The notes beneath the pieces were generated by a model. That model was given only the letters and a program-made list of their open reading frames with translations, did not search any database and had not been told where the DNA came from. DNA of 64,000 nucleotides, taken from Candidatus Nomurabacteria bacterium. GTDB taxonomy: Bacteria > Patescibacteriota > Saccharimonadia > Saccharimonadales > VXPC01. This document shows, one piece after another, positions 1,028-61,068 of the stretch. Each line of letters opens with the position of its first letter. Within the stretch, counting starts at the first letter, position 1. A program made the translations under genes and the position numbers. The stretch covers positions 421,854 through 485,853 of the forward strand of contig JACKGQ010000001.1 in NCBI GenBank assembly GCA_020631905.1, written 5' to 3'.

Positions 1028-1060
1028 CTATGAAATTAAAAAAGTTCATATGATGCTCGA

Positions 1061-1093
1061 AATTTAATTTAAATTTAATTTAAATTAAATTTA
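1061..1093. repeat. A/T-only quasi-palindromic element, copy A
   Basis: AATTTAATTTAAATTTAATTTAAATTAAATTTA. 1061-1092 matches 24299-24330 at 31 of 32 positions. Confidence 0.9.
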
Positions 1094-1292: not shown

Positions 1293-1326
1293 AGAACTAG
1301 ATCTTAGATCTCGGATCTTAGAGCTA
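1293..1326. repeat. Heptanucleotide tandem array (AGATCTT family), solo intergenic copy
   Basis: AGAACT AGATCTT AGATCTC GGATCTT AGAGCTA. Same unit and orientation as the array at 4178-4210. Confidence 0.85.
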
Positions 1327-1638
1327 ACTCACATACTTAAGCTCAGTAAGCTTGCTAATCTCGGGTTTGGGTTCATAAAGATCCGTTTAGGTTTATCTGA
1401 AAGTTTAAGTCAATCTTATACTTCTGAGGACTACCAGGTTAGCGATAGCTAAACTTTCCGCAAGAACAGATTTAAACTTATAGATAAAACTAGTAGTGAT
1501 CTTCATTCTACCCAAGAGCTTTTGTAATACTTTTGGCGGGCAAAAGTATTAAAGATACATTTTCGCTTTACATCCGCTAGCTAGCGGAAAGCTCATCAGT
1601 TACAGTTTAACTGTAATAATGTATTCACAAGGAGAACA

Positions 1639-1683
1639 CTGCCACCGGCTCATTCGCTATTGCTAGCGAAGAGCCGGTGGCAG
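1639..1683 (-). terminator. Long GC-rich hairpin downstream of the GC-rich minus-strand gene
   Basis: CTGCCACCGGCTC (1639-1651) pairs perfectly with GAGCCGGTGGCAG (1671-1683). An inner TTCGCTA/TAGCGAA pairing extends the stem. It lies 6 nt after the stop at 1690. The downstream U-tract on the minus strand is only moderate. Confidence 0.6.
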
Positions 1684-1689
1684 GTGCAG

Positions 1690-2202
1690 TCACGAGGCGG
1701 TGATGTCGCCTCGACTGTTGTGGCTGCGGTCGAACAGGTTGGCCACGTTCGAGCCGTATTGGGCCCGCAGCTGGTCCCGCAGGTCGGTGTCGTTTGTCGG
1801 ACGGATCTTGCGTAGCGCAGCACTGTTTACCTGGCCGTTCATCAGCTGCCGGCGACGCTCGCTGAGCACCTGCCAGAGCTGCCGCCCGGCGGCGCTGACG
1901 CGCGTCGGCTGGATCACGGTCATACGACCGAAGATCAGCCAGAGCACGCCGGCAATCGCCAGACGCTGCAGTGTCAGCTCGCCGATGTCGGTGGCGCCAG
2001 TCAGAAGCGGACTCCACTCGGGCATGGGCTGGTAGGTCCAGTCTGTGGCGTAGTCGAGCAGCGCCCAGGCGGCCACGAACTTCCACGCTTCGTGGAAGAG
2101 CATCGCCAGCGTGCTGAGCACGCCGAAGATATAGATCATCGCAGTGACGGCAGCCGCCACTGCGATGATCAGGAACTCGGGGCCTGTCAGCAGGTCGAGC
2201 AT
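1690..2202 (-). CDS. Hypothetical membrane protein encoded on a GC-rich island (170 aa)
   Basis: ATG is preceded by AAGGAG (2210-2215) with a 7-nt spacer. Two or three predicted TM helices at the N-terminus and a charged C-terminal half. G+C is visibly far above the flanks. Two other long ORFs overlap it, as expected in GC-rich DNA. Confidence 0.7.
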   Translation of the reverse strand: MLDLLTGPEFLIIAVAAAVTAMIYIFGVLSTLAMLFHEAWKFVAAWALLDYATDWTYQPMPEWSPLLTGATDIGELTLQRLAIAGVLWLIFGRMTVIQPTRVSAAGRQLWQVLSERRRQLMNGQVNSAALRKIRPTNDTDLRDQLRAQYGSNVANLFDRSHNSRGDITAS

Positions 2203-2364
2203 GGTGTTTCTCCTTGTGGTGTGCGTCGACGGGTAGGCAAGACGCCCAACCTCACTAATCGAACAAACATATTATAGCACAAAGTAATAAAAAAGTAAAT
2301 CAGTGCACTAATTTCGATAGGTAAAATGCCATAGCTCTAGACTATGCAAAGCCTTAAACAAACA

Positions 2365-2468: not shown

Positions 2469-3542
2469 ATGAGCGAAACAGCACCACAATCTAACTACGA
2501 ACAAGAACTCGACAAAGCCATTGGAGACATGGCAGGATTCGATCAGCATCGAAGGGCTGGTTTTGCGCCGGGTAGGTTCGATAATAGGGGTTTTGGCAAT
2601 GTCTATGCAGATGCGAGTCAGGACGCCAGCACACTAACATATGGCGACATTACGGGTGGTGAGGGGCAGCCTAAAATTGTAGGAGATTTGTATTTAGCAC
2701 ACACTGACAATGCTGGCTACGGCTATGATCACGACATACTAGTAGACAGAAGTGGTGGGAGTGGCGCAACAGTCGATGAATATGTTGCAAAACACGACGG
2801 CGACGTAACTATCGAGCGGATTGATCGTAACACCGGGCAGACAGTTTATGAATCAAAATTATCCGGCGAGAAGGCGGCCAAAGCTAAAGAAATTTTAACC
2901 CGATTAGCACTACGCTATGCGAACGAAAAAATCGAAGCTTCCAACGACCCTGAGTTAGTTCAAAAATATGTCGACGAAGCATTCGAACATGTTGAAGCCC
3001 AAGTTGAAGATGAACGTAAAGACTTGCGTAGTGGTGACGAAAAACAAATCCGGGCGGACGCACTTTTGTATCCCGAGACTCATCATTTAGCAAAGCTTGA
3101 GGAAAACGACGCCCAGTCATGGGGCCGTGAGATAGCTTATGTGTTAAAAGAGGATCCACTATATATAGAGCGAGCTTTGCCTCAACTCGAGGCGGCTAGC
3201 CCAGAGACCGTCGAACAGCTCAAGGATATGATAAAAAATAAACTACGACTTCAGCGAGCTGCCAAATATACGCTGAGTAGACACAAAGAGTACTCTACAG
3301 CTAGTCAGCTGTATAGCGTGCTCGAGCAGCTTGGGGTTAAAGTTGGTCGTTACGATAGGCTAAGTAACCCTGCACTCGAGTCTCAGATAAACGATCTTGC
3401 TACAAGGTTAAAGACAAACATGAAGGTTAGGCGCGTTCTCGAGGGTACATTTCGTTCAGCTTCGTCTAGAGTAAATTATCGTCGCCGAAATGCCCCAAGC
3501 AATCATCTGGCAAACGATAGCCCCACGCAGCTAGCCGCCTAG
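2469..3542 (+). CDS. Hypothetical protein (357 aa), acidic and helical, no signal peptide
   Basis: Long ORF with its own consensus promoter. I recognise no motif. Confidence 0.75.
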   Translation: MSETAPQSNYEQELDKAIGDMAGFDQHRRAGFAPGRFDNRGFGNVYADASQDASTLTYGDITGGEGQPKIVGDLYLAHTDNAGYGYDHDILVDRSGGSGATVDEYVAKHDGDVTIERIDRNTGQTVYESKLSGEKAAKAKEILTRLALRYANEKIEASNDPELVQKYVDEAFEHVEAQVEDERKDLRSGDEKQIRADALLYPETHHLAKLEENDAQSWGREIAYVLKEDPLYIERALPQLEAASPETVEQLKDMIKNKLRLQRAAKYTLSRHKEYSTASQLYSVLEQLGVKVGRYDRLSNPALESQINDLATRLKTNMKVRRVLEGTFRSASSRVNYRRRNAPSNHLANDSPTQLAA

Positions 3543-3619
3543 CGATCAACCAGATCTTAGCGAATTGCAAAGATTGTTCGTGCTATAATATTAGTCTATT
3601 AAGGAGTTATTTTGGTTTT

Positions 3620-4171
3620 ATGGATGGTCAACAATACGTAGTTTCTGCTAGTAAAAAGTTTAACGAGTCGGTCGAGCATTTCGAAGCCGAGGCCTCGAAA
3701 GTTCGAACTGGTAGAGCTCACCCGAGTATGCTCGACGGCATTATGGTCGAAGCTTACGGTACCGAAATGCCACTGATTCAGTGTGGTAGTATTAGCGTCC
3801 CCGAAAATACATTGCTCCAGATTACTCCATTCGATCCAAATAACATCCAGGCTATTAGTGCGGCAATTCGCAACGATCAACAGCTGGGCCTCAACCCAAG
3901 CGACGATGGTCGAGTTGTACGCGTGCCGGTACCGCCGCTAACTAGTGAGCGTCGTCAACAACTTGTTAAAGTGCTCAACGAAAAGAAGGAAGATGCCTTT
4001 ATTAGTATGCGTACATCACGCCATGACGCCCTAAAAGAAATCAAAGATAATGTGCCAAGCCAAGACGAAGCCAAGCGTCTCGAAACTCAAGTCGACGAAG
4101 CTATGAACAAAGCTAAAAACCAAATCGAAACTGTAGCCAAAACCAAAGAGCAGGAAATCCTTACAGTCTAA
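3620..4171 (+). CDS. frr: Ribosome recycling factor
   Basis: Full-length RRF pattern (KVRTGRAHPSMLDGIMVEAYG...PLTSERRQQLVK...). Confidence 0.93.
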   Translation: MDGQQYVVSASKKFNESVEHFEAEASKVRTGRAHPSMLDGIMVEAYGTEMPLIQCGSISVPENTLLQITPFDPNNIQAISAAIRNDQQLGLNPSDDGRVVRVPVPPLTSERRQQLVKVLNEKKEDAFISMRTSRHDALKEIKDNVPSQDEAKRLETQVDEAMNKAKNQIETVAKTKEQEILTV

Positions 4172-4176
4172 TTTCC

Positions 4177-4210
4177 TAGATCTTGGATCTTAGAGCTCAG
4201 AGCTTAGAGT
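4177..4210. repeat. Left arm: heptamer array and inverted repeat flanking the four-helix-bundle gene
   Basis: AGATCTT GGATCTT AGAGCTC AGAGCTT AGAGT. 4177-4195 is the reverse complement of 4570-4588 with one mismatch. Confidence 0.9.
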
Positions 4211-4567
4211 ATGTCGACCTACGATTATAAAAAACTAGAAGTCTGGCAGCGTTCCATGAAATTTGTAGTAGCAGTATATTCGGTGTGCGAAAAACTACCC
4301 GACTACGAGAAATATTCATTAGCAGATCAGCTTCGAAGAGCTAGCGTATCGATCCCGTCGAATATTGCAGAGGGACAAAAGCGTGCCAATAAAAAGGAAA
4401 CTGTTCAGTTTACTTATGTTGCCATTAGCTCGCTAGCAGAAGTTGAGACGCAGCTGATACTTGCAAGTAGACTTCACGGCGTAAAAACAGATGATTTATT
4501 AACAGAATGTGAGATAATTGGCCGCATGCTCACAGCACTAACAAACTCTTTGAAGAGGATAAAATGA
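4211..4567 (+). CDS. Four-helix-bundle protein (23S rRNA intervening-sequence protein family)
   Basis: Family-typical KKLEVWQ...A..VY......P..EKYSLADQLRRASVSIPSNIAEGQ....KE...F..A..SL.E..TQL pattern. 118 aa. Confidence 0.88.
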   Translation: MSTYDYKKLEVWQRSMKFVVAVYSVCEKLPDYEKYSLADQLRRASVSIPSNIAEGQKRANKKETVQFTYVAISSLAEVETQLILASRLHGVKTDDLLTECEIIGRMLTALTNSLKRIK

Positions 4568-5283
4568 GCCTCCAAGATCCAAGATCTAAGATCAAAGATC
4601 TAATTCCAAAGCATATTGGGATTATCTTAGATGGTAATCGGCGGTGGGCCGAAGAAAACGGTTTACCGACAATGGAAGGCCACCGAAAAGGTGCCGACAA
4701 TATCGAGTTCGTTGCCGAAGCCTTGTTTGATAAAGGTGTCGAGTATGTGTCTTTATTTGTATTTTCTACCGAAAACTGGAAACGGACTACCGAGGAAGTT
4801 GGCTATCTGATGAAGTTATTTGTAAAGCTGTTCAAAAAAGACAGCCAGCGTTTGATTGATCGAGGTTATCGAATTCTGTTTGCCGGACGACGTGATGGCA
4901 AGATTAACAAAGATATAAGTGAGGCAATCGAAGATCTCGAAGACAGTTCTAAAAATGGTAAGAATGGCACACTTGTTTTTTGCTTCAACTACGGCGGCAC
5001 AACCGAGATAGTCGATGCGGTTAAAGGTATTGTTGAGTCTGGCATAAATCCCGAAGATATCGATGAGCAAACATTGTCCGAAAACATGTATCAACCAGAA
5101 GTCCCACCAATCGATCTGCTGGTGCGGACAAGCGGCGAACAAAGAATCAGTGGTTTTCAGCTATGGCGAGCAGCTTATGCAGAACTGTTGTTTATTGATA
5201 AACACTGGCCAGATTTTAGTCCGGCCGATGCTACAATGATTATCGATGAATTTTCGGCGCGTAACCGGCGGTTTGGAGGCTAA
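4564..5283 (+). CDS. uppS: Isoprenyl transferase / undecaprenyl-diphosphate synthase
   Basis: HIGIILDGNRRWA, FSTENWKR and RTSGEQRISGFQLW motifs. The ATG overlaps the upstream stop (ATGA). Confidence 0.92.
   Translation: MSLQDPRSKIKDLIPKHIGIILDGNRRWAEENGLPTMEGHRKGADNIEFVAEALFDKGVEYVSLFVFSTENWKRTTEEVGYLMKLFVKLFKKDSQRLIDRGYRILFAGRRDGKINKDISEAIEDLEDSSKNGKNGTLVFCFNYGGTTEIVDAVKGIVESGINPEDIDEQTLSENMYQPEVPPIDLLVRTSGEQRISGFQLWRAAYAELLFIDKHWPDFSPADATMIIDEFSARNRRFGG
4570..4603. repeat. Right arm: heptamer array in inverse orientation, inside the first codons of uppS
   Basis: CCAAGAT CCAAGAT CTAAGAT CAAAGAT CTAA. It pairs with 4177-4195. Confidence 0.9.
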
Positions 5284-6468
5284 GTGAATATATTTCTGAT
5301 TATCCTTGGGCTTGTATTATTTCAGTTACTAGTAATACTGCATGAATATGGTCATTTTTTGATTGCCAAGCGCAATGGTGTAGATGTTGAAGAGTTTGGT
5401 TTAGGCTTTCCACCAAAGATTGCCGGCAAAACAATGGGCAAGGGCATCTTCCGGGGTTACTACACAATCAATTGGTTGCCATTGGGTGGATTCGTGCGCC
5501 TTAAAGGCGAAAACGATAATGCAAAGGGTAAGCGTACCTATGGTGGATCGAGCTTAAAAGTCAAAGCAAAAATTATTCTTGCTGGTGTAGCCGTTAACTA
5601 CATAATTGCCGTAATTTTATTTACGATTCTTGCCGCCGTCGGTATCCCTAAACTCCTGCCTCTAGAGCCAATCACAACCGACCAACAGTTCACCGTGGCG
5701 CGCGATACAAAGATTATCGACCAGCGGACTTACATTAACTATGTCGACAATAATTCGCCGGCGGCAATTGCCGGAGTCGAACAGGGCGATAAGCTGTTAA
5801 AAATTGGCGAGACCCAGATCAATAGCTACGAAGACTTAAAAGCCACAACTCCGCTTTATGCTGGGCAGACGGTGAATGTTGTCCTCGAGCGAGGTGGCAC
5901 CGAACTCGTAAAACCGGTAAGCTTTATAAGTGAAGACGAGCATAGTCAAAGTGTTCAAGAATTTGACTCATGTATGACGAGCGGCGCGACAGATTGCGCT
6001 ACCCCGAAAGGCTATTTTGGAGTGCTATCACAAGATTTTGTACTCCAGCGAAGCACCTGGTCGTCACCGATCACAGGCGTTGTCTTGAGCGCTCAGTATA
6101 CAAAAGTCACTTTTCAAGGAATATGGCACGCAATTAGTGCACTTTTTAGCGGCAACACTCAAGAAGCCGAGAACTCGGTGGCTGGTCCGCTAGGTATATT
6201 TTTTGTAATCAAGCAGAGCGCTAATTATGGGCTAAGATTCTTACTGATGTTTATTGCCACGATATCTCTAACCCTGGCGATTATGAACAGTCTGCCGATT
6301 CCGGCTCTAGACGGTGGCCGTCTAATGCTCACAGTCTTGTTTAGAAAAGTGCTTAAAAAACCTCTTACAAAAAGCCTCGAAGAGCGAATTGTCGGCTCGA
6401 GTATGGCTGCATTGTTGGCATTAATGCTATTAATCACGATTGTCGATGTCCGTAGATTCATTCTATAA
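5284..6468 (+). CDS. rseP: RIP (site-2) zinc metalloprotease RseP/RasP family
   Basis: HEYGHFLIAK (HExxH) in TM1, a central PDZ-like segment, and a C-terminal NLLPIPALDGG-like motif (NSLPIPALDGG). GTG start. Canonical position after uppS. Confidence 0.9.
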   Translation: MNIFLIILGLVLFQLLVILHEYGHFLIAKRNGVDVEEFGLGFPPKIAGKTMGKGIFRGYYTINWLPLGGFVRLKGENDNAKGKRTYGGSSLKVKAKIILAGVAVNYIIAVILFTILAAVGIPKLLPLEPITTDQQFTVARDTKIIDQRTYINYVDNNSPAAIAGVEQGDKLLKIGETQINSYEDLKATTPLYAGQTVNVVLERGGTELVKPVSFISEDEHSQSVQEFDSCMTSGATDCATPKGYFGVLSQDFVLQRSTWSSPITGVVLSAQYTKVTFQGIWHAISALFSGNTQEAENSVAGPLGIFFVIKQSANYGLRFLLMFIATISLTLAIMNSLPIPALDGGRLMLTVLFRKVLKKPLTKSLEERIVGSSMAALLALMLLITIVDVRRFIL

Positions 6469-12411: not shown

Positions 12412-13368
12412 ATGGCTTCGTCCAAACGTACGACTACTAAAAAACCTAGCACAGCACGACCAAAAGCTGCCAAAAAACCAGCTGCGAGCAAGACAGCCGC
12501 TGTCAAAACAACTTCTAAAAAACCAGTTGCAAAAACGGTAGCAAAAAAAGTAACCAGCAAAACAACTGCTACTAAGGTAGCAAAACCTGCAGCTAAAAAG
12601 AAAAACGCTACAGATAAGTTTATGCAACTAAAACAGTGGAACCTAGCCCTAGGTGTACTTCATGCTGCTCAAGCAGTAGCGGTGTTTTTACTGGCCAAGG
12701 ATTTCCGAGTGCCTTTTAGAACAGAATATCTAACGTTTAACGAAGCTACACAGAGTTTAGAGTCGGCTTCGCGTTTGCTATTCGAACTACCGCTAGCTTG
12801 GCTAATTGTGGCCTTTTTCGCGATGAGCTCGATAGCCCATTTTGTAATTGCCGGACCTTGGTTTAAAAAATATAAAGCTGATTTAGAAAAAGGTATGAAC
12901 CGTGCTCGCTGGGTAGAGTACGCTGTAAGCGCCAGTACGATGATGGTCGCGATCGCAGCATTAGTTGGTGTAGTTAGTTTACCACTAGCCTTTAGCATGT
13001 TTGCATTAACTGCAGTCATGAACTTACTTGGTTTAGTTATGGAAACGCACAATCAGGGTCAAGCCAAACCAAATTGGCTGAGTTATTGGGTTGGCACAAT
13101 TGCCGGCTTAGTACCTTGGCTTGTTGTTGCCAGCTACTTTGTTAGTAACTGGTTTTATGGCAGTGGCAATCCGCCAACCTTTGTTTACATTATTTTTGTA
13201 AGCATTTTTGTAGCCTTTAGTAGTTTTGCAGTTAATATGTGGTTGCAGTACAAAAAGAAAGGCAAGTGGGCCGACTATCTTTACGGCGAAAAAGCCTATA
13301 TGGTTCTTAGCCTTGTTGCCAAAAGCGCCTTAGCTTGGCAAATATTTGGCGGTACTTTGCGCCCATAA
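12412..13368 (+). CDS. Heliorhodopsin, with a possible Lys/Ala/Thr-rich N-terminal extension
   Basis: aa 74-318 match heliorhodopsin along the whole length (GVLHAAQ; IAHFVI; RWVEYAVSAS; GLVPW; GEKAYMVLSLVAKSALAWQIFGGTL). Schiff-base Lys304 is at nt 13321-13323. The alternative start at M71 (nt 12622) would give a canonical-length protein. Confidence 0.88.
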   Translation: MASSKRTTTKKPSTARPKAAKKPAASKTAAVKTTSKKPVAKTVAKKVTSKTTATKVAKPAAKKKNATDKFMQLKQWNLALGVLHAAQAVAVFLLAKDFRVPFRTEYLTFNEATQSLESASRLLFELPLAWLIVAFFAMSSIAHFVIAGPWFKKYKADLEKGMNRARWVEYAVSASTMMVAIAALVGVVSLPLAFSMFALTAVMNLLGLVMETHNQGQAKPNWLSYWVGTIAGLVPWLVVASYFVSNWFYGSGNPPTFVYIIFVSIFVAFSSFAVNMWLQYKKKGKWADYLYGEKAYMVLSLVAKSALAWQIFGGTLRP

Positions 13369-24263: not shown

Positions 24264-24297
24264 TTATAGATAAGATTTCCTGGAGTTGGTACGTGCT

Positions 24298-24331
24298 AAA
24301 TTTAATTTAAATTAAATTTAAATTAAATTTC
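24298..24331. repeat. A/T-only quasi-palindromic element, copy B
   Basis: AAATTTAATTTAAATTAAATTTAAATTAAATTTC. 24299-24330 matches 1061-1092 at 31 of 32 positions. Confidence 0.9.
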
Positions 24332-37565: not shown

Positions 37566-37829
37566 ATGAAACTGATTAACATTCGATTCTTCACTAAGAA
37601 CTCAGAACCAAGAACTCAGAACTCTCTGGCAGCAGGAGTTTGCGGTGCGTTTCCGGTAGATCTGAAAACCACGTATGAGGAGCTAGATTGGTTTTTCTTG
37701 GCGAGGAAGCTCCAAGGAGATGTAGATTGGCTACTTCGACTGAGCCCCACAGCCAAAAAAATCAAGCTAGCCCTCAAGCAAACTCAGAGTGCCGGGCTTT
37801 GCCTGGCAGCAGGAGTTTGCGGTGCGTAG
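37566..37829 (+). CDS. Possible 87-aa upstream ORF translationally coupled to pyrG (doubtful)
   Basis: GGAGG (37555-37559) lies 6 nt before the ATG. The stop TAG (37827-37829) overlaps the pyrG GTG (37822). The ORF contains both copies of the 25-bp repeat, read as LAAGVCGA each time. No family recognised. Confidence 0.3.
   Translation: MKLINIRFFTKNSEPRTQNSLAAGVCGAFPVDLKTTYEELDWFFLARKLQGDVDWLLRLSPTAKKIKLALKQTQSAGLCLAAGVCGA
37594..37625. repeat. Heptanucleotide tandem array (variant CNNAGAA unit)
   Basis: CTAAGAA CTCAGAA CCAAGAA CTCAGAA CTCT. It directly abuts direct-repeat copy 1. Confidence 0.8.
37626..37650 (+). repeat. 25-bp direct repeat, copy 1 (decoy RBS and GTG)
   Basis: CTGGCAGCAGGAGTTTGCGGTGCGT is identical to 37803-37827. 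Here the GTG (37645) opens only a 4-codon ORF (M-R-F-R-stop). Confidence 0.9.
37803..37827 (+). repeat. 25-bp direct repeat, copy 2 (carries the pyrG RBS and start)
   Basis: Identical 25-mer. AGGAG at 37811-37815, then a 6-nt spacer, then GTG at 37822. Confidence 0.9.
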
Positions 37830-40274: not shown

Positions 40275-40303
40275 TTGTAATATCAGTATAAAAATGCTAT
40301 AAT
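40275..40303 (+). promoter_or_regulatory. Sigma-70-type promoter for the 118-aa membrane protein gene
   Basis: TTGTAA (40275-40280), 17-nt spacer, TATAAT (40298-40303), with a TGC extended -10. Confidence 0.6.
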
Positions 40304-44298: not shown

Positions 44299-45567
44299 TT
44301 ATTTTCTTACTAAAACTAATAATTCTCGCGCAACAACTTGGCCTGGCCTGTGGTAGATCAGATCTTGCCGACGAGCATGTTTAAAATCTAGCCGATTATA
44401 GCCGAATTCCTCGAGAGAGTCAAGTAGTGGCAAGTGCTTGAAACTGGAGCTTAGATCTTGGAGCTTAGATCTTGGAGCACTTACTGCCCAGGCAGGGACA
44501 GCTATGCACATCCGAGTGCCAGATCTGGTTTGGGAGGCTAAGTTGCGCAAGAATTGGCTAAGCAGGTGATTTACATTGGTTATGTTTTGTTCGAGCTGTT
44601 CCAGCTCGGGCAGCTTAAAGTAGGCTTCGCCAAGAAATGTCTCGCAGGCAACAGCGCCGATCTCTGGTTTGGCTGAAACCGGTTGGTTAACATCTTTTAA
44701 GAAATCTAGCCAGTTAGCCGAACAGGCATCAGCAGGTTCGTAAGTTGTGTGGCCACCTTCAGGTACAATCGATGATGTTAACTTTTTGTTGGCCCAGATG
44801 CCATTGTCGGCGGCCATCTTAACCATTCGCGGCTCAAGGTCGGTGTTCGCCCTATAGGCTAGACCCATTAAGTACGCTTCGATGTTTATGACGCCAGTAC
44901 CACAAAAAGGATCAAGGAGGTATTCGTCGGATAAATCTTCGAGTTTAGGGCAGGCAAGATTGATGATGATTTGGGCTAGTTTGGGTGGCAACATGCCGAC
45001 TTTTGCGTCGCGGGCTGGACGGGAACGATCGCGGTAAGTATAGGCGTCGAGGTCTTGGATAGCGACAGTTTGGGCAATGATTGTCTGATTATCCCGCCGA
45101 ACAAGACAAAGCTCCCAGCCTTTCGAGTGGAGTTTGTTGTGCAGAACCTGAGCGTCGTTTAATGTTTGGCTATAGGTTGGGACAAGCCGGACGTTTCGTC
45201 CGGTACGTTTAACTGCTTTTTTGATGTTTAGGCCAAGTTTTTCGATCTGTTTCTGGCCAAAATCTAGACCGTAAACAGATACACCAATCGATAATTTTCC
45301 TTCGGGCCACTGCTGCACATGTTCGACGCAGGCAACAGCCAAGAACTTTTCTATATCGGCTAATTTAGTGGAGTCGAGAACAGTTAAGACTTTGGCAAGT
45401 TTAGTACTACCACCGAGTCGATAAAATGGAACTTGTCCGGACTCGATGTCGAGCAGGGCAATTTGACCGAATGTATCAGCGATCGCCGCGTCTCCAAAAA
45501 GGCTCTCGAGCTCGGCGAGGCTAAGTTTTGGTTGTCGACCCAAAAATATAATTGTTTGGTAGTTCAC
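44299..45567 (-). CDS. Class I SAM-dependent methyltransferase, Trm11/UPF0020-like (putative RNA guanine-N2 MTase)
   Basis: MLPPKLAQIIINLA followed by LDPFCGTGV (SAM motif I). I prefer the GTG at 45567, which gives MNYQTIIFLGRQPKLSLAELE. The ORF track extends to a TTG at 45642. Confidence 0.7.
   Translation of the reverse strand: MNYQTIIFLGRQPKLSLAELESLFGDAAIADTFGQIALLDIESGQVPFYRLGGSTKLAKVLTVLDSTKLADIEKFLAVACVEHVQQWPEGKLSIGVSVYGLDFGQKQIEKLGLNIKKAVKRTGRNVRLVPTYSQTLNDAQVLHNKLHSKGWELCLVRRDNQTIIAQTVAIQDLDAYTYRDRSRPARDAKVGMLPPKLAQIIINLACPKLEDLSDEYLLDPFCGTGVINIEAYLMGLAYRANTDLEPRMVKMAADNGIWANKKLTSSIVPEGGHTTYEPADACSANWLDFLKDVNQPVSAKPEIGAVACETFLGEAYFKLPELEQLEQNITNVNHLLSQFLRNLASQTRSGTRMCIAVPAWAVSAPRSKLQDLSSSFKHLPLLDSLEEFGYNRLDFKHARRQDLIYHRPGQVVARELLVLVRK
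44446..44480. repeat. Heptamer array inside the methyltransferase CDS (perfect 14-bp unit repeated twice)
   Basis: GGAGCTT AGATCTT GGAGCTT AGATCTT GGAGCAC. Confidence 0.9.
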
Positions 45568-45610
45568 TTCAAATAAGTATAATTGACTGCAGTCGAATAA
45601 GGAATCAAAC

Positions 45611-46666
45611 TTGAAAAGCTCCAGAATTAAACTATTTATCAACCTGTTGACCTTTGTTGCACTTGGAGCATTGATATTTTTCTCGAGAGCTCAAATTAGC
45701 GATGCCCTACATCAACTAAAAGAACTGAGTGTTGGCTTTTTGGTGCTACTCGTGCCGACTCAGCTGGTTAGCTACTACGCAATCGCCCAACTATACTATT
45801 CTTACTTTAAGGCCACCAATACGCTGGAAAAACTAACTCTTAAAGAAATGTATTGGATTAGTTTAGAGCTAAACTTTGTGAACTGTGCATTTCCGAGCGG
45901 TGGCTTGAGCGGCTTCTCGTTTATGGGTTTACGTCTGCAACCCTATGGCATACCGGTGGCGGCGACCACACTCTCGCAGATAATTCGTTATTTTATGACT
46001 TTTATAAGTTTCTTGGTGCTATTAGCCGCAGGCACGCTTTTTTTGGCTTTTGGTAACCATGTAAACGGTATTGTCTTGTTGGTAAGTAGCGGAGTCTTTT
46101 TTGTGACGGTAACCGGCACCTTGATTGTCGTCTATATTATTAGTAGCGAACATCGGATTAAGTCGTTCATGCTGTCTTTACCAAAGACAATCAACTGGAT
46201 TCTACGGAAAGTTGGTCGGAGGTCTGGGTCGTACTCGATTAATCTTAATAGGATTGAGCGAGTTTTTTCGGAGTTACATAGAGATTACTTACTACTAAAA
46301 AAGGACCCAAGCATACTCAAGCGACCATTCTTGTTTGGGCTAATGACAAACGCATGCGAGGTCCTGACAGTTTACTGGGTATTCTTAGCGTTCGGTTCGC
46401 CTGTAAATCCTGGAGCAGTAATTTTGGCTTATGCAGTGGCCAACATGGCATCGGTGATTTCAATTTTGCCGGGAGCTGTTGGCATGTATGAGTCGCTAAT
46501 GGTTTATGTGGCAGCAGCGGCTGGTTTGTCGCGGGGGTTATCGATCTCGGCAACTTTAGTATACCGAGTGTTTATGCTGTTAATTTTCGTACCTTTTGGA
46601 GCAGTTCTTTATCAAATGTCAGCAAATCGACGCAAAACGCAAAATACCCATACTCTAGATGGATAA
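45611..46666 (+). CDS. Polytopic membrane protein, LPG-synthase-TM / UPF0104 (flippase-like) family
   Basis: Eight or so TM helices. The N-terminal pattern (K.........L.....L..F......I...L) is typical of the family. TTG start with an AAGGA RBS. Confidence 0.6.
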   Translation: MKSSRIKLFINLLTFVALGALIFFSRAQISDALHQLKELSVGFLVLLVPTQLVSYYAIAQLYYSYFKATNTLEKLTLKEMYWISLELNFVNCAFPSGGLSGFSFMGLRLQPYGIPVAATTLSQIIRYFMTFISFLVLLAAGTLFLAFGNHVNGIVLLVSSGVFFVTVTGTLIVVYIISSEHRIKSFMLSLPKTINWILRKVGRRSGSYSINLNRIERVFSELHRDYLLLKKDPSILKRPFLFGLMTNACEVLTVYWVFLAFGSPVNPGAVILAYAVANMASVISILPGAVGMYESLMVYVAAAAGLSRGLSISATLVYRVFMLLIFVPFGAVLYQMSANRRKTQNTHTLDG

Positions 46667-54206: not shown

Positions 54207-54221
54207 TGCTACAATACAGTC

Positions 54222-61049: not shown

Positions 61050-61068
61050 AGGTGATACAATAGCAGCC

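What the first reader, a model, noticed from the sequence alone, without database searches (positions are those of the whole stretch)
4177..4603. rRNA-IVS-like cassette (four-helix-bundle ORF closed by a 19-bp stem) inserted in the frr-uppS mRNA operon
A 118-aa four-helix-bundle protein sits exactly between frr and uppS. This family was first described as the ORF carried inside 23S rRNA intervening sequences. The gene is bracketed by inverted arms. TAGATCTTGGATCTTAGAG (4177-4195) is the reverse complement of CTCCAAGATCCAAGATCTA (4570-4588) with one mismatch, including 15 contiguous bp. In a frr-uppS transcript, this stem would close a ~375-nt loop containing the entire ORF. That is the architecture of rRNA IVSs, which RNase III excises. 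Both arms are arrays of a 7-nt unit: AGATCTT GGATCTT AGAGCTC AGAGCTT on the left and CCAAGAT CCAAGAT CTAAGAT CAAAGAT on the right. The right arm has been co-opted as uppS codons 2-13 (MSLQDPRSKIKDL precedes the conserved PKHIGIILDGNRRWA). The uppS ATG overlaps the cassette stop (ATGA). An IVS-type element living in an mRNA operon would be unusual. If it is processed, cleavage could uncouple or down-regulate uppS.
Basis: partly seen in the sequence, partly recalled or inferred. Interest (0 to 1): 0.66.

Follow-up and report, generated by a model that had tools for sequence, protein, structure and literature searches.

The report
IVS-like gene cassette inside frr operon
A small gene of unknown function sits between two housekeeping genes of a Saccharibacteria genome, closed off by a hairpin of 7-base repeats just like the pieces cut out of some ribosomal RNAs; the same design surrounds most sampled genes of this family, linking them to the unexplained 7-base repeats common in bacteria.

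Summary
A 118-aa four-helix-bundle (FHB; PF05635/TIGR02436) ORF at 4211-4567 lies between frr and uppS. It is bracketed by inverted arrays of tandem heptamers (4174-4209 and 4570-4603) that close a long-range stem. The uppS ATG overlaps the FHB stop, and the right arm encodes the UppS N-terminal tail.

The cassette is old, not a fresh insertion. At least six other Saccharibacteria lineages carry an intact FHB with paired arms directly after frr, and one more keeps a decayed remnant. 77 of 80 related species have empty sites without arrays.

The design is general in my sample. Of 83 FHB loci, 60 have significant inverted arms, nearly all with period 7 but with very different unit sequences. 60 of 70 lie behind a co-directional gene, and none was seen in rRNA.

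The experimentally studied Coxiella 23S IVS has the same anatomy: tandem heptamers before the ATG, a 28-bp stem and RNase III cleavage. The IVS-like reading therefore holds, but an mRNA location looks common for this family, not unusual.

RNA processing here is inferred, not shown. Arrays of the same unit also occur alone in the genome, once as an in-frame insertion in a methyltransferase. This hints that FHB proteins and orphan heptamer repeats belong together.

The parts
3581..3589 (+). TGCTATAAT extended -10-like motif 31 nt upstream of the frr ATG. It is the probable promoter of the frr-FHB-uppS unit.
   Evidence: No such motif lies between the frr stop and the uppS start, and no terminator-like site lies on the + strand in 3400-5400. 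Promoter function is inferred.
3620..4171 (+). frr (ribosome recycling factor), the upstream host gene
   Evidence: PF01765, E=2.1e-50
4174..4209 (+). Left arm, an array of about 4.5 tandem heptamers (TAGATCT TGGATCT TAGAGCT CAGAGCT TAGAG). It starts 3 nt after the frr stop and ends 1 nt before the FHB ATG. The core stem half is 4177-4195.
   Evidence: The array is conserved in orthologous cassettes.
4211..4567 (+). 118-aa four-helix-bundle protein (PF05635 / TIGR02436), a homologue of Xanthomonas XCC0516
   Evidence: Pfam E=4.9e-34. TIGR02436 scores 119.5 bits against a cut-off of 24. PDB 2GSC matches by sequence at E=3.1e-21. The AlphaFold model has pLDDT 94.7 and four helices, with TM 0.90 to 2GSC.
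4570..4603 (+). Right arm, an array of about 4.5 heptamers (CTCCAAG ATCCAAG ATCTAAG ATCAAAG ATCTA) complementary to the left arm. It is read as uppS codons 3-13. The core stem half is 4570-4588.
   Evidence: The same arrangement occurs in L007, L176 and L177.
4564..5283 (+). uppS. Its ATG overlaps the FHB stop (ATGA), and its 13-aa variable N-terminal tail is encoded by the right arm.
   Evidence: PF01255, E=3.2e-72. N-termini of relatives are compared.
1299..1326 (+). Solo array of the same heptamer family (AGATCTT AGATCTC GGATCTT AGAGCTA), intergenic after tsf. It has no partner arm and no FHB remnant.
44446..44480 (+). Solo array of the same heptamer family (GGAGCTT AGATCTT GGAGCTT AGATCTT GGAGC). 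On the minus strand it forms an in-frame 9-aa insertion (within ..SAPRSKLQDLSS..) in a variable loop of a Trm11-like methyltransferase.
   Evidence: The alignment with 17 homologues is.

Best explanation
The segment 4174-4603 (430 nt) is an intervening-sequence-type cassette. It consists of a four-helix-bundle (PF05635/TIGR02436) gene tightly enclosed by two inverted arrays of about 4-5 tandem heptamers. It lies in the intercistronic space of a frr-to-uppS transcription unit of a Candidatus Saccharibacteria genome.

It is an old, vertically inherited and frequently lost resident of this position, not a recent arrival. It has become entangled with its host: uppS now starts inside it (ATGA overlap), and the UppS tail is encoded by the right arm.

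When the operon is transcribed, the arms can pair into a 19-33-bp helix that loops out the whole ORF. The helix buries the nucleotides just upstream of the FHB start and lies directly after the uppS start codon.

By analogy with the one member of this cassette class that has been studied experimentally (the Coxiella 23S rRNA IVS), this helix is most likely a substrate of RNase III. Cleavage would sever frr mRNA from the downstream message and would leave both the FHB and uppS reading frames untranslatable. Ribosomes translating FHB would melt the helix and, through the ATGA overlap, hand over to uppS.

**Shown:** the protein family and fold; the arms, their periodicity and complementarity; conservation with compensatory change in orthologues; empty sites; the prevalence of the design across the sampled family.

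**Inferred:** co-transcription, formation of the helix in vivo, RNase III cleavage and its consequences.
For: **Anatomy.**

**Orthologues.** An intact FHB sits directly after frr, with inverted heptamer arms, in L007, L010, L013, L064, L176 and L177. Their Frr proteins are only 50-62% identical to each other where compared.
- RNAalifold on seven of these cassettes recovers the closing helix of 25 pairs.
- 83.9% of cells are paired, against 78.9 +/- 1.3 in shuffles (0 of 500 reach it).
- The covariation score is 0.168 against 0.109 (1 of 500 reach it).
- Slid registers pair at only 18-50%.
- L064 uses a different unit on both arms (AGTTCT / AGAACT), and L061 uses GGGCAAA / TTTGCCC.

**Family-wide pattern.**
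- 60 of 83 unique FHB loci have significant arms. Period 7 is the best period in 48 of the 55 that could be assessed.
- The MFE fold pairs at least 70% of the left arm with the right arm in 52 of 60 loci. The helix is worth a median of about -14 kcal/mol.
- Median arm length is 31 nt, cassette length 458 nt and ORF length 120 aa.

**Experimental precedent.** The Coxiella IVS is 428-444 nt with a 28-bp stem. Three to four tandem heptamers sit immediately 5' of the S23p ATG. RNase III cuts in mid-stem, at the first repeat (PMC4990558).

**Transcription context.** The gap after frr is 39 nt. There is no terminator-like site and no TGnTAnAAT motif between frr and uppS. FHB genes follow a co-directional gene in 60 of 70 sampled loci.
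Against: - No RNA data exist for this organism.
- Mismatches in the arms are G:U-type as often as A:C-type (59 versus 58), so nothing shows that pairing is selected specifically in the sense RNA.
- No RNase III gene lies in the 64-kb window, so its presence in this genome is not verified.
- RNase III cleavage inside uppS codons would inactivate a gene that is normally needed, which demands that cleavage be partial or regulated.
- A plain stem does not explain three features: the conserved period of 7, the conserved AG(T/G) core of the units, and solo arrays of the same unit elsewhere.
Confidence: 0.55

Rival explanations
1. The heptamer arrays are primarily the ligand of the FHB protein itself. 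The homopentameric toroid would read tandem heptamers (about one unit per protomer) in RNA or single-stranded DNA, and its own gene is flanked by them as autoregulation or packaging into an RNP. Solo arrays of the same unit elsewhere would then be further targets. Pairing of the two arms would be part of the recognised structure, or would compete with binding.
For: - Arms are a median 31 nt, or 4.4 units.
- Left-arm units share an AG(T/G) core: AGT occurs in 26 and AGG in 15 of 57 units.
- The left arm is G-rich on the sense strand in 50 of 60 loci (p=1e-9), an asymmetry that a bare helix does not need.
- The unit (A/G)GA(T/G)CTT is conserved in lineages whose Frr is only 50-60% identical.
- Solo arrays near FHB genes match the arms' unit within one mismatch in 28 of 50 cases, against 3.5 expected.
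- The window has two such solo arrays.
- The gene for XCC0516 (2GSC) starts inside one of 186 GGGAATC arrays of Xanthomonas campestris.
- The homologous Avd pentamer contacts one RNA stem-loop with all five protomers (bioRxiv 10.1101/2023.10.23.563531).
Against: - No binding data exist for any non-Avd member.
- A single-strand reader would not need the second arm to be inverted.
- Units differ widely between genomes whose FHB proteins keep the same invariant residues.
- Co-inheritance of a gene and its arms would also produce matching units.
Confidence: 0.2
2. The arms are DNA-level terminal inverted repeats of a small mobile or formerly mobile element. They matter for insertion, excision or recombination, with the FHB protein perhaps as a mobility factor, and any RNA hairpin is a by-product.
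For: - The distribution is patchy and scattered over the Frr tree.
- A related cassette sits at a different junction, between uppS and rseP, in L061. Others sit behind other genes in L178 and L179.
- Arrays occur solo, including as an in-frame insertion in a coding loop.
- G:U and A:C mismatches are symmetric.
- Mobility was an early hypothesis for IVS elements (discussed in PMC4990558).
Against: - There is no transposase or recombinase domain, and the protein is a 118-aa helical bundle.
- No target-site duplication is seen on inspection of the window or its orthologues.
- There is only one copy in 64 kb.
- frr-linked FHBs form one Saccharibacteria-specific clade, with divergence like that of Frr, which fits vertical descent.
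- The arms stay complementary over that depth even where they are coding.
Confidence: 0.15
3. The helix acts only as a translational gate, without cleavage. It occludes the FHB ribosome-binding region and the start of uppS, so that uppS translation is strictly coupled to FHB translation.
For: - The left arm ends 1 nt before the FHB ATG, and 0-6 nt before it in most orthologues.
- The right arm starts 3 nt after the uppS ATG.
- ATGA or TAATG overlaps are conserved in window, L007, L176, L177 and L064.
Against: - In the wider family the left arm ends a median 22 nt before the start codon, and downstream genes are often convergent or absent, so gating of a downstream gene cannot be the general role.
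- Coxiella shows that cleavage does occur in this class.
Confidence: 0.07
4. The ORF is the accessory protein (Avd) of a diversity-generating retroelement.
For: There is a weak match to bAvd-like and Avd models and a shared fold: PF22296 E=7.6e-6, and TM about 0.79 to 4DWL. DGRs are common in CPR bacteria (own knowledge).
Against: - The Avd equivalog NF033474 scores 29.4 bits against a cut-off of 80.
- The neighbouring genes are tsf, two unknowns, frr, uppS, rseP, a CPBP protease and proS. None carries a reverse-transcriptase domain.
- No template/variable repeat pair was seen.
Confidence: 0.01
5. The arms are chance simple-sequence slippage products with no relation to the ORF.
For: Heptamer tandem repeats are the commonest intergenic short repeats in prokaryotes (bioRxiv 10.1101/309039).
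Against: - Paired, inverted arrays flank the ORF in 60 of 83 loci.
- Arrays are absent from 77 empty sites.
- Period-7 or period-14 arrays number 189 per 257 kb around FHB genes, against 26 per 489 kb in FHB-less loci.
Confidence: 0.01

Closest known systems
ORF-carrying 23S rRNA intervening sequence of Coxiella burnetii (and Leptospira), encoding S23p
   Same: - The protein family is the same (PF05635).
- The size is the same: 428-444 nt, against 430 nt here.
- The termini are complementary and close a stem around the whole ORF (28 bp, against 19-33 bp here).
- The 5' arm is built of tandem heptamers that end at the ATG.
- Decay by internal deletion of the ORF is seen in some strains, as in L021 here (PMC4990558).
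   Different: - The host RNA is a protein-coding operon (frr-uppS), not helix 45 of 23S rRNA.
- The heptamer unit differs: (A/G)GA(T/G)CTT here, GACAGAT in Coxiella.
- The downstream host gene starts inside the element.
- RNase III excision is shown for Coxiella but not here.
- The ORF here looks intact and conserved, whereas the Coxiella ORF is thought to be unexpressed and decaying.
XCC0516 of Xanthomonas campestris (PDB 2GSC) and the GGGAATC heptamer repeats of xanthomonads (Rehm et al. 2015, PMC4692102)
   Same: - The proteins are 40% identical over the structural alignment, with TM 0.90.
- The gene lies directly behind a housekeeping gene (accB/bccP).
- A four-unit heptamer array overlaps its annotated start.
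- Arrays of the same unit are dispersed in the genome, and some are arranged as inverted pairs.
   Different: - The units are G-rich and were studied as G-quadruplex formers. The unit here has no G-run.
- The published work did not connect the repeats with the FHB gene.
- I could not read the Xanthomonas locus itself, so a right arm there is not verified.
Avd, accessory protein of diversity-generating retroelements (PDB 4DWL; RNP 8UB7)
   Same: It shares the four-helix-bundle fold, and Avd forms a pentameric barrel. The Avd pentamer binds an RNA stem-loop with all five protomers.
   Different: There is no reverse transcriptase and no template/variable repeats here. The Avd model scores below its cut-off. 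Sequence identity in the structural alignment is 12-16%.
Orphan heptamer tandem repeats of bacteria (TAACTGA in Beggiatoaceae and cyanobacteria, PMC4679880; Nostoc GGGGAYT; cyanobacterial STRR)
   Same: These are short arrays of 2-6 or more heptamers, mostly intergenic. They often end just upstream of a start codon, are occasionally in frame inside ORFs, and use a genome-specific unit.
   Different: Those arrays were described as direct repeats without an enclosed gene and without a link to FHB proteins. Whether they depend on FHB genes is untested.
RNase III processing stems that flank 16S and 23S rRNA in the primary transcript, and intercistronic RNase III sites of phage T7 early mRNA (own knowledge)
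   Same: A long-range or local double-stranded RNA in a polycistronic precursor is cut to separate functional units.
   Different: Those stems are not built of tandem heptamers and do not enclose a dedicated protein gene.

Membership tests
ORF-carrying rRNA intervening sequence (Coxiella/Leptospira S23p type) | Encodes a PF05635 (23S_rRNA_IVP / S23p) protein | tested here: met
   Pfam E=4.9e-34. TIGR02436 scores 119.5 bits. 2GSC matches at E=3.1e-21.
ORF-carrying rRNA intervening sequence (Coxiella/Leptospira S23p type) | Complementary termini form a stem of about 20-28 bp that loops out the whole ORF | tested here: met
   Arms of 19-33 nt at 82-95% complementarity. The MFE fold closes them. 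The consensus helix has 25 pairs in 7 orthologues.
ORF-carrying rRNA intervening sequence (Coxiella/Leptospira S23p type) | The 5' arm is made of tandem heptamers ending at the ORF start (described for Coxiella) | tested here: met
   The array 4174-4209 ends 1 nt before the ATG. The Coxiella description is in PMC4990558.
ORF-carrying rRNA intervening sequence (Coxiella/Leptospira S23p type) | Located inside a 23S (or 16S) rRNA gene, replacing a helix loop | tested here: not met
   No Rfam family, including rRNA, reaches threshold in the 64-kb window. The flanks are frr and uppS.
ORF-carrying rRNA intervening sequence (Coxiella/Leptospira S23p type) | Excised from the precursor by RNase III without religation | not testable with these tools
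   This needs RNA-end mapping or an in-vitro cleavage assay.
TIGR02436 / PF05635 four-helix-bundle protein family | Scores above the curated cut-offs, has a four-helix-bundle fold and carries the conserved S-IPSNIAEG motif | tested here: met
   The model has pLDDT 94.7 with helices at 10-27, 37-57, 61-89 and 94-116, and TM 0.90 to 2GSC. Invariant residues are P49 S50 N51 I52 A53 E54 G55.
TIGR02436 / PF05635 four-helix-bundle protein family | Homopentameric toroid | not testable with these tools
   Only a monomer model could be made. The pentamer is known for 2GSC and Avd from the literature.
Diversity-generating retroelement (Avd component) | Reaches the Avd equivalog score and has an adjacent reverse transcriptase with a TR/VR pair | tested here: not met
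   NF033474 scores 29.4 bits against a cut-off of 80. No neighbour within about 5 kb carries an RT domain.
DNA transposon / MITE | Terminal inverted repeats | tested here: met
DNA transposon / MITE | Target-site duplication, a transposase (or many near-identical copies for a MITE) | tested here: not met
   No consistent flanking direct repeat is seen in the window or orthologues. No transposase domain is present. There is a single FHB copy in the window.
Dispersed bacterial heptamer tandem repeats | Arrays of at least two tandem heptamers with a genome-specific unit at several loci | tested here: met
   Four four-unit arrays of the (A/G)GA(T/G)CTT family occur in 64 kb, against about 0.5 expected for arrays of two or more units.
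Anti-phage defence systems (PADLOC models) | Matches a model of a known or candidate defence protein | tested here: not met
   No PADLOC hit at E<=0.01

The most novel reading that the evidence does not exclude
PF05635 four-helix-bundle proteins and tandem heptamer arrays are two halves of one widespread system. The pentameric protein would recognise arrays of about five heptamers, in RNA or single-stranded DNA. Its gene travels as a hairpin-closed cassette that settles in transcribed regions: rRNA, tRNA operons and mRNA operons. The genome-specific heptamer arrays that are the commonest unexplained intergenic repeats of prokaryotes would be its dispersed targets or footprints. The frr-uppS cassette would then be one instance, and its solo arrays at 1299 and 44446 would be others.
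Probability: 0.25. Interest if true: 0.88.

Novelty: new variant of a known kind. Interest (0 to 1): 0.72.

Why it matters
Two old puzzles meet here.

- **The IVS ORF.** The ORF carried by some 23S rRNA intervening sequences has had no function since the early 1990s (own knowledge).
- **Heptamer repeats.** Tandem heptamer repeats are reported as the most abundant intergenic short repeats in prokaryotes, with 'no clear clue' to their role (bioRxiv 10.1101/309039; PMC4692102, PMC4679880).

The evidence gathered here shows that most sampled genes of this family are enclosed by inverted heptamer arrays. This is the same anatomy as the one IVS whose RNase III processing was mapped. The evidence also shows that such cassettes commonly sit in ordinary operons.

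This makes both puzzles testable with simple experiments: RNase III cleavage, protein-repeat binding, and a genome census. For Saccharibacteria specifically, it suggests that an essential cell-wall gene (uppS) has become dependent on a resident selfish-looking cassette for its start codon and its transcription.

I found no paper in the searchable library that states the family-wide link. That is absence of evidence, not proof of novelty.

Tried and rejected
- **RNA genes.** Rfam at gathering threshold and ARAGORN found no RNA gene in the window. The element is not in or next to rRNA or tRNA.
- **Paralogues.** phmmer of the FHB against all six-frame ORFs of the window found no paralogue.
- **Solo arrays as decayed cassettes.** hmmsearch with filters off found no FHB remnant beside the solo arrays at 1299, 37600 or 44450, so they are not obviously decayed cassettes.
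- **Partner arms.** No partner inverted arm was found for the solo arrays.
- **RNase III gene.** The RNase III signature motif is absent from the window's ORFs. This is uninformative about the rest of the genome.
- **Sense-RNA selection.** The G:U versus A:C mismatch asymmetry test gave 59 versus 58 and is inconclusive.
- **Target-site duplication.** TCTAATT(T)CC occurs on both sides in the window, but nothing comparable occurs in L007, L010, L176 or L177. Rejected.
- **Displaced uppS promoter.** Only 7 of 45 empty-site spacers contain TGnTAnAAT. This is too weak to claim.
- **Defence system.** No PADLOC hit.
- **DGR Avd.** Rejected.
- **Strain variation.** Six assemblies of the same organism from different samples are identical over frr-uppS. 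I therefore saw no strain-level variation in heptamer copy number of the kind reported for Coxiella.
- **Exceptions to the design.** Two finished cyanobacterial plasmid loci (L180, L181) lack a clear inverted pair, consistent with the roughly 28% of loci without significant arms. A third (L182, between cas10/cmr2 and cmr3) has AGGAGAT / ATCTCCT arms.
Full report
**1. What is in the sequence**

frr (3620-4171), a 118-aa ORF (4211-4567) and uppS (4564-5283) lie head to tail on the + strand. Pfam assigns them to RRF, 23S_rRNA_IVP (PF05635, E=4.9e-34) and prenyltransferase.

The small protein has these properties:
- It reaches TIGR02436 ('four helix bundle protein') with 119.5 bits against a cut-off of 24.
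- It matches the solved Xanthomonas protein XCC0516 (PDB 2GSC) at E=3.1e-21.
- It models with pLDDT 94.7 as four long helices that superpose on 2GSC at TM 0.90. More distant matches are BT_0352 (2RLD) and the retroelement protein Avd.

The ORF is bracketed by TAGATCTTGGATCTTAGAG (4177-4195) and its reverse complement with one mismatch (4570-4588). The arms extend to 22 nt at 91% or 33 nt at 82%. Both arms are arrays of a heptamer, (A/G)GA(T/G)CTT on the left and its complement on the right.

The minimum-energy fold of 4160-4620 closes this stem (z=-2.66). With a shuffled right flank, the complementary score never exceeds 10, against 16 observed. The uppS ATG overlaps the ORF's stop (ATGA), and uppS codons 3-13 are the right arm.

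**2. Transcription context**

A TGCTATAAT motif lies 31 nt upstream of frr (3581-3589). There is none between frr and uppS, and another lies just before rseP (5229-5237). No terminator-like site lies on the + strand between 3400 and 5400. Co-transcription of frr, the ORF and uppS is therefore likely, but it is inferred.

**3. The organism and the orthologous loci**

The exact protein is found in a Candidatus Saccharibacteria MAG (GCA_020428525.1) and in five other assemblies whose frr-uppS DNA is identical to the window's over the parts they cover.

Its closest relatives (50-69% identity) mostly sit in the same place:

| Arrangement | Loci |
|---|---|
| frr-FHB-uppS | L007, L176, L177, L064 |
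| frr-FHB-rseP (no uppS at the locus) | L010, L013 |

Every one of them has inverted heptamer arms around the ORF. In window, L007, L176 and L177, the right arm is read as the UppS tail M(S)IQDPRSKIQDL. This holds even though the Frr proteins of window and L007 are only 50% identical.

RNAalifold on seven cassettes returns the closing helix as the main consensus element (25 pairs). On that alignment:
- 83.9% of cells pair. No shuffle of 500 reaches this, and slid registers give 18-50%.
- The covariation score is 0.168 against 0.109 (1 of 500 shuffles reach it).
- L064 has changed the unit on both arms (AGTTCT / AGAACT).
- A pseudogenised copy at a different junction (L061, between uppS and rseP) uses GGGCAAA / TTTGCCC.

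**4. Empty sites and decay**

I fetched the frr locus of 80 species-representative genomes by similarity to Frr (53-62% identity; nearly all labelled Saccharibacteria or Saccharimonadales). 77 have no FHB. One has an intact cassette (L064), one has the L061 pseudogene, and one has an internally deleted remnant that keeps both arms (L021).

Arrays of the arm type occur in these loci only next to FHB sequences. In empty sites, frr and uppS are separated by -1 to 56 nt. UppS has 9-22 residues before its DGNRRW motif, and none is heptamer-coded.

FHB-positive lineages are scattered over a neighbour-joining Frr tree. However, the frr-linked FHBs fall in one clade of 29 of 104 sequences. That clade contains no member of a broad metagenomic sample. 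Their divergence (47-64%) is like that of Frr (50-62%). The simplest history is an old acquisition in Saccharibacteria, followed by vertical descent, frequent loss and occasional relocation (L178 and L179). The same junction hosts unrelated small genes in other lineages (L067, L027).

**5. The design is common across the sampled family**

A metagenome scan with an alignment of 50 FHB proteins returned 80 further loci at 40-53% identity. Together with the loci already held, this gave 83 unique loci with both flanks:
- 60 have a complementary pair of arms that beats all shuffles. The best period is 7 in 48 of the 55 arms long enough to judge.
- Period-7 self-similarity is 0.46 both upstream of the start and after the stop, against about 0.27 for every other period from 3 to 12.
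- Units differ widely (AGTGGTC, AGGGACT, GTAGGCA, AGTACCG, GAGTCCC, GGTTTAT and others), but the two arms of a cassette match each other.
- Median arm length is 31 nt (4.4 units), cassette length 458 nt and ORF length 120 aa.
- The MFE fold pairs at least 70% of the left arm with the right arm in 52 of 60 loci.
- Period-7 or period-14 arrays number 189 in 257 kb of these loci, against 26 in 489 kb of the FHB-less Saccharibacteria loci.
- FHB genes lie behind a co-directional ORF in 60 of 70 cases with an upstream neighbour, at a median gap of 74 nt.
- In two loci the gene lies between two co-directional tRNA genes.
- None was seen in rRNA. Rfam was run only on the 20 loci with a missing or distant neighbouring ORF; the others are flanked by long ORFs.

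A finished plasmid shows the same thing between cas10/cmr2 and cmr3 (L182, AGGAGAT / ATCTCCT arms). Published annotations place FHB genes between cmr3 and cmr2, between gmk and nadD, and directly behind accB.

**6. Link to the true intervening sequence**

Warrier et al. (PMC4990558) describe the Coxiella 23S IVS as follows:
- Three tandem GACAGAT heptamers plus a degenerate fourth lie immediately upstream of the ATG.
- The heptamer copy number varies between strains.

That anatomy is the anatomy found here. The window's cassette therefore works like, and is evidently homologous to, an ORF-carrying IVS. It fails one defining feature of that class, residence in an rRNA gene.

**7. Properties a plain stem does not explain**

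- On the coding strand the left arm is G-rich relative to C in 50 of 60 loci (p=1e-9).
- Its unit contains AG in 43 of 57 cases, AGT in 26 and AGG in 15.
- Mismatches within arms are G:U-type and A:C-type equally often (59 versus 58), so there is no signature of selection acting specifically on the sense RNA.
- Arrays also occur alone. In the window these are at 1299-1326 (intergenic) and 44446-44480. The latter is an in-frame 9-aa insertion in a variable loop of a Trm11-like methyltransferase, absent from 17 homologues.
- Across the metagenomic loci, solo arrays match the unit of the nearby FHB arms within one mismatch in 28 of 50 cases, against 3.5 expected.
- In Xanthomonas campestris, the XCC0516 gene begins inside one of 186 GGGAATC arrays whose function is unknown (PMC4692102).
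- FHB genes on plasmids are found mostly in Nostoc, Calothrix and relatives. These are among the organisms in which heptamer repeats were first described (own knowledge for STRR).
- Two surveys state that heptamer repeats are the commonest intergenic short repeats and have no known role.
- The homologous Avd pentamer binds an RNA stem-loop with all five protomers.

**8. Mechanism**

The best-supported account has three parts. The cassette is transcribed as part of the frr-uppS RNA. Its arms pair. The helix is then handled as in Coxiella, that is, cut by RNase III.

Cleavage would separate frr from the downstream message and would disable both FHB and uppS translation. Ribosomes translating FHB would open the helix and pass on to uppS through the ATGA overlap.

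The rivals are:
- The arrays are the ligand of the FHB pentamer.
- The arms are DNA-level terminal repeats of a mobile element.
- The helix is a translational gate without cleavage.

These are not mutually exclusive with the main account, and the data above keep the first two alive. Avd of a retroelement and chance slippage are rejected.

**9. Novelty**

The protein family, its presence in rRNA IVSs, its presence in assorted operons, and bacterial heptamer repeats are each known. In seven full-text searches I did not find two statements:
- that FHB genes outside rRNA carry the same hairpin of inverted heptamer arrays as the IVS;
- that FHB genes and dispersed heptamer arrays share units.

The library lacks most subscription-journal papers, so this may be described elsewhere.

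**10. Limits**

- All loci other than the window come from MAGs or metagenome contigs, except the plasmids and a few complete genomes.
- The 80 metagenomic loci are the best matches among the first 600 pattern hits, not a random sample of the family.
- Arm detection was ungapped, so 72% is a lower bound.
- The NJ trees are rough.
- No RNA or protein experiment underlies any mechanistic step for this locus.

Noticed in passing
window 44446-44480 (minus-strand ORF 44299-45642): A 4.7-unit array of the same heptamer family as the FHB arms forms an in-frame 9-aa insertion (within ..SAPRSKLQDLSS..) in a variable loop of a Trm11-like methyltransferase. The insertion is absent from all 17 aligned homologues. 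The encoded peptide resembles the arm-encoded UppS tail.
   Followed up: yes
window 1299-1326: A solo four-unit array (AGATCTT AGATCTC GGATCTT AGAGCTA) lies in the long non-coding stretch after tsf. It has no inverted partner and no FHB remnant nearby.
   Followed up: partly
window 37566-37829: An array of a different heptamer (AGAACTC, the unit of the L064 and L178 arms) lies at 37593-37622, inside an 87-aa ORF upstream of pyrG. It is followed by a perfect 25-nt direct repeat (37626-37650 and 37803-37827, 177 nt apart). This looks like a duplication or insertion scar at the pyrG start.
   Followed up: partly
window 1600-2250: A high-GC island (63-67%, against a 44.8% window average) holds a 170-aa minus-strand ORF (1690-2202) with no Pfam hit. 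A TGCTATAAT motif lies just upstream of it on the minus strand (2271-2279). It looks like foreign DNA between tsf and frr.
   Followed up: no
window 2469-3542: A 357-aa ORF between tsf and frr has no Pfam family. Together with the GC island, it replaces the short tsf-frr spacing seen in relatives such as L007.
   Followed up: no
window 1060-1093 and 24297-24330: Two copies of an AT-only 11-mer tandem and palindromic array (AAATTTAATTT, about 3 copies each) lie in intergenic DNA.
   Followed up: no
window, 12 sites (e.g. 54207-54215, 61053-61061, 40295-40303): TGnTAnAAT motifs occur at the chance count overall, but by eye nearly all sit about 5-35 nt upstream of ORF starts. Several are so close that the mRNAs would be leaderless.
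   Followed up: no
window 12412-13368: A heliorhodopsin gene (PF18761, per the precomputed annotation of the identical locus L001).
   Followed up: no
L067 3528-3947; L027 2028-2360: The frr-uppS junction of other Saccharibacteria holds unrelated small genes: a 139-aa soluble protein and a 110-aa membrane protein. Both start on the frr stop (TAATG) and have no heptamer arms. The junction is a general landing place.
   Followed up: partly
L146 1231-1850; L126 187-906: An FHB cassette lies between two co-directional tRNA genes, that is, inside a tRNA operon.
   Followed up: no
L116 584-676: An inverted pair of GGGGAAT arrays sits only about 30 nt apart with no ORF between them. This 'empty hairpin' uses the same unit as the arms of the FHB gene 1.3 kb away.
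   Followed up: no
L021 3563-3750; L061 5332-5868: Two decaying cassettes. L021 keeps both arms around an internally deleted ORF. L061 has an in-frame stop in the FHB and GGGCAAA arms, and lies between uppS and rseP instead of after frr.
   Followed up: yes
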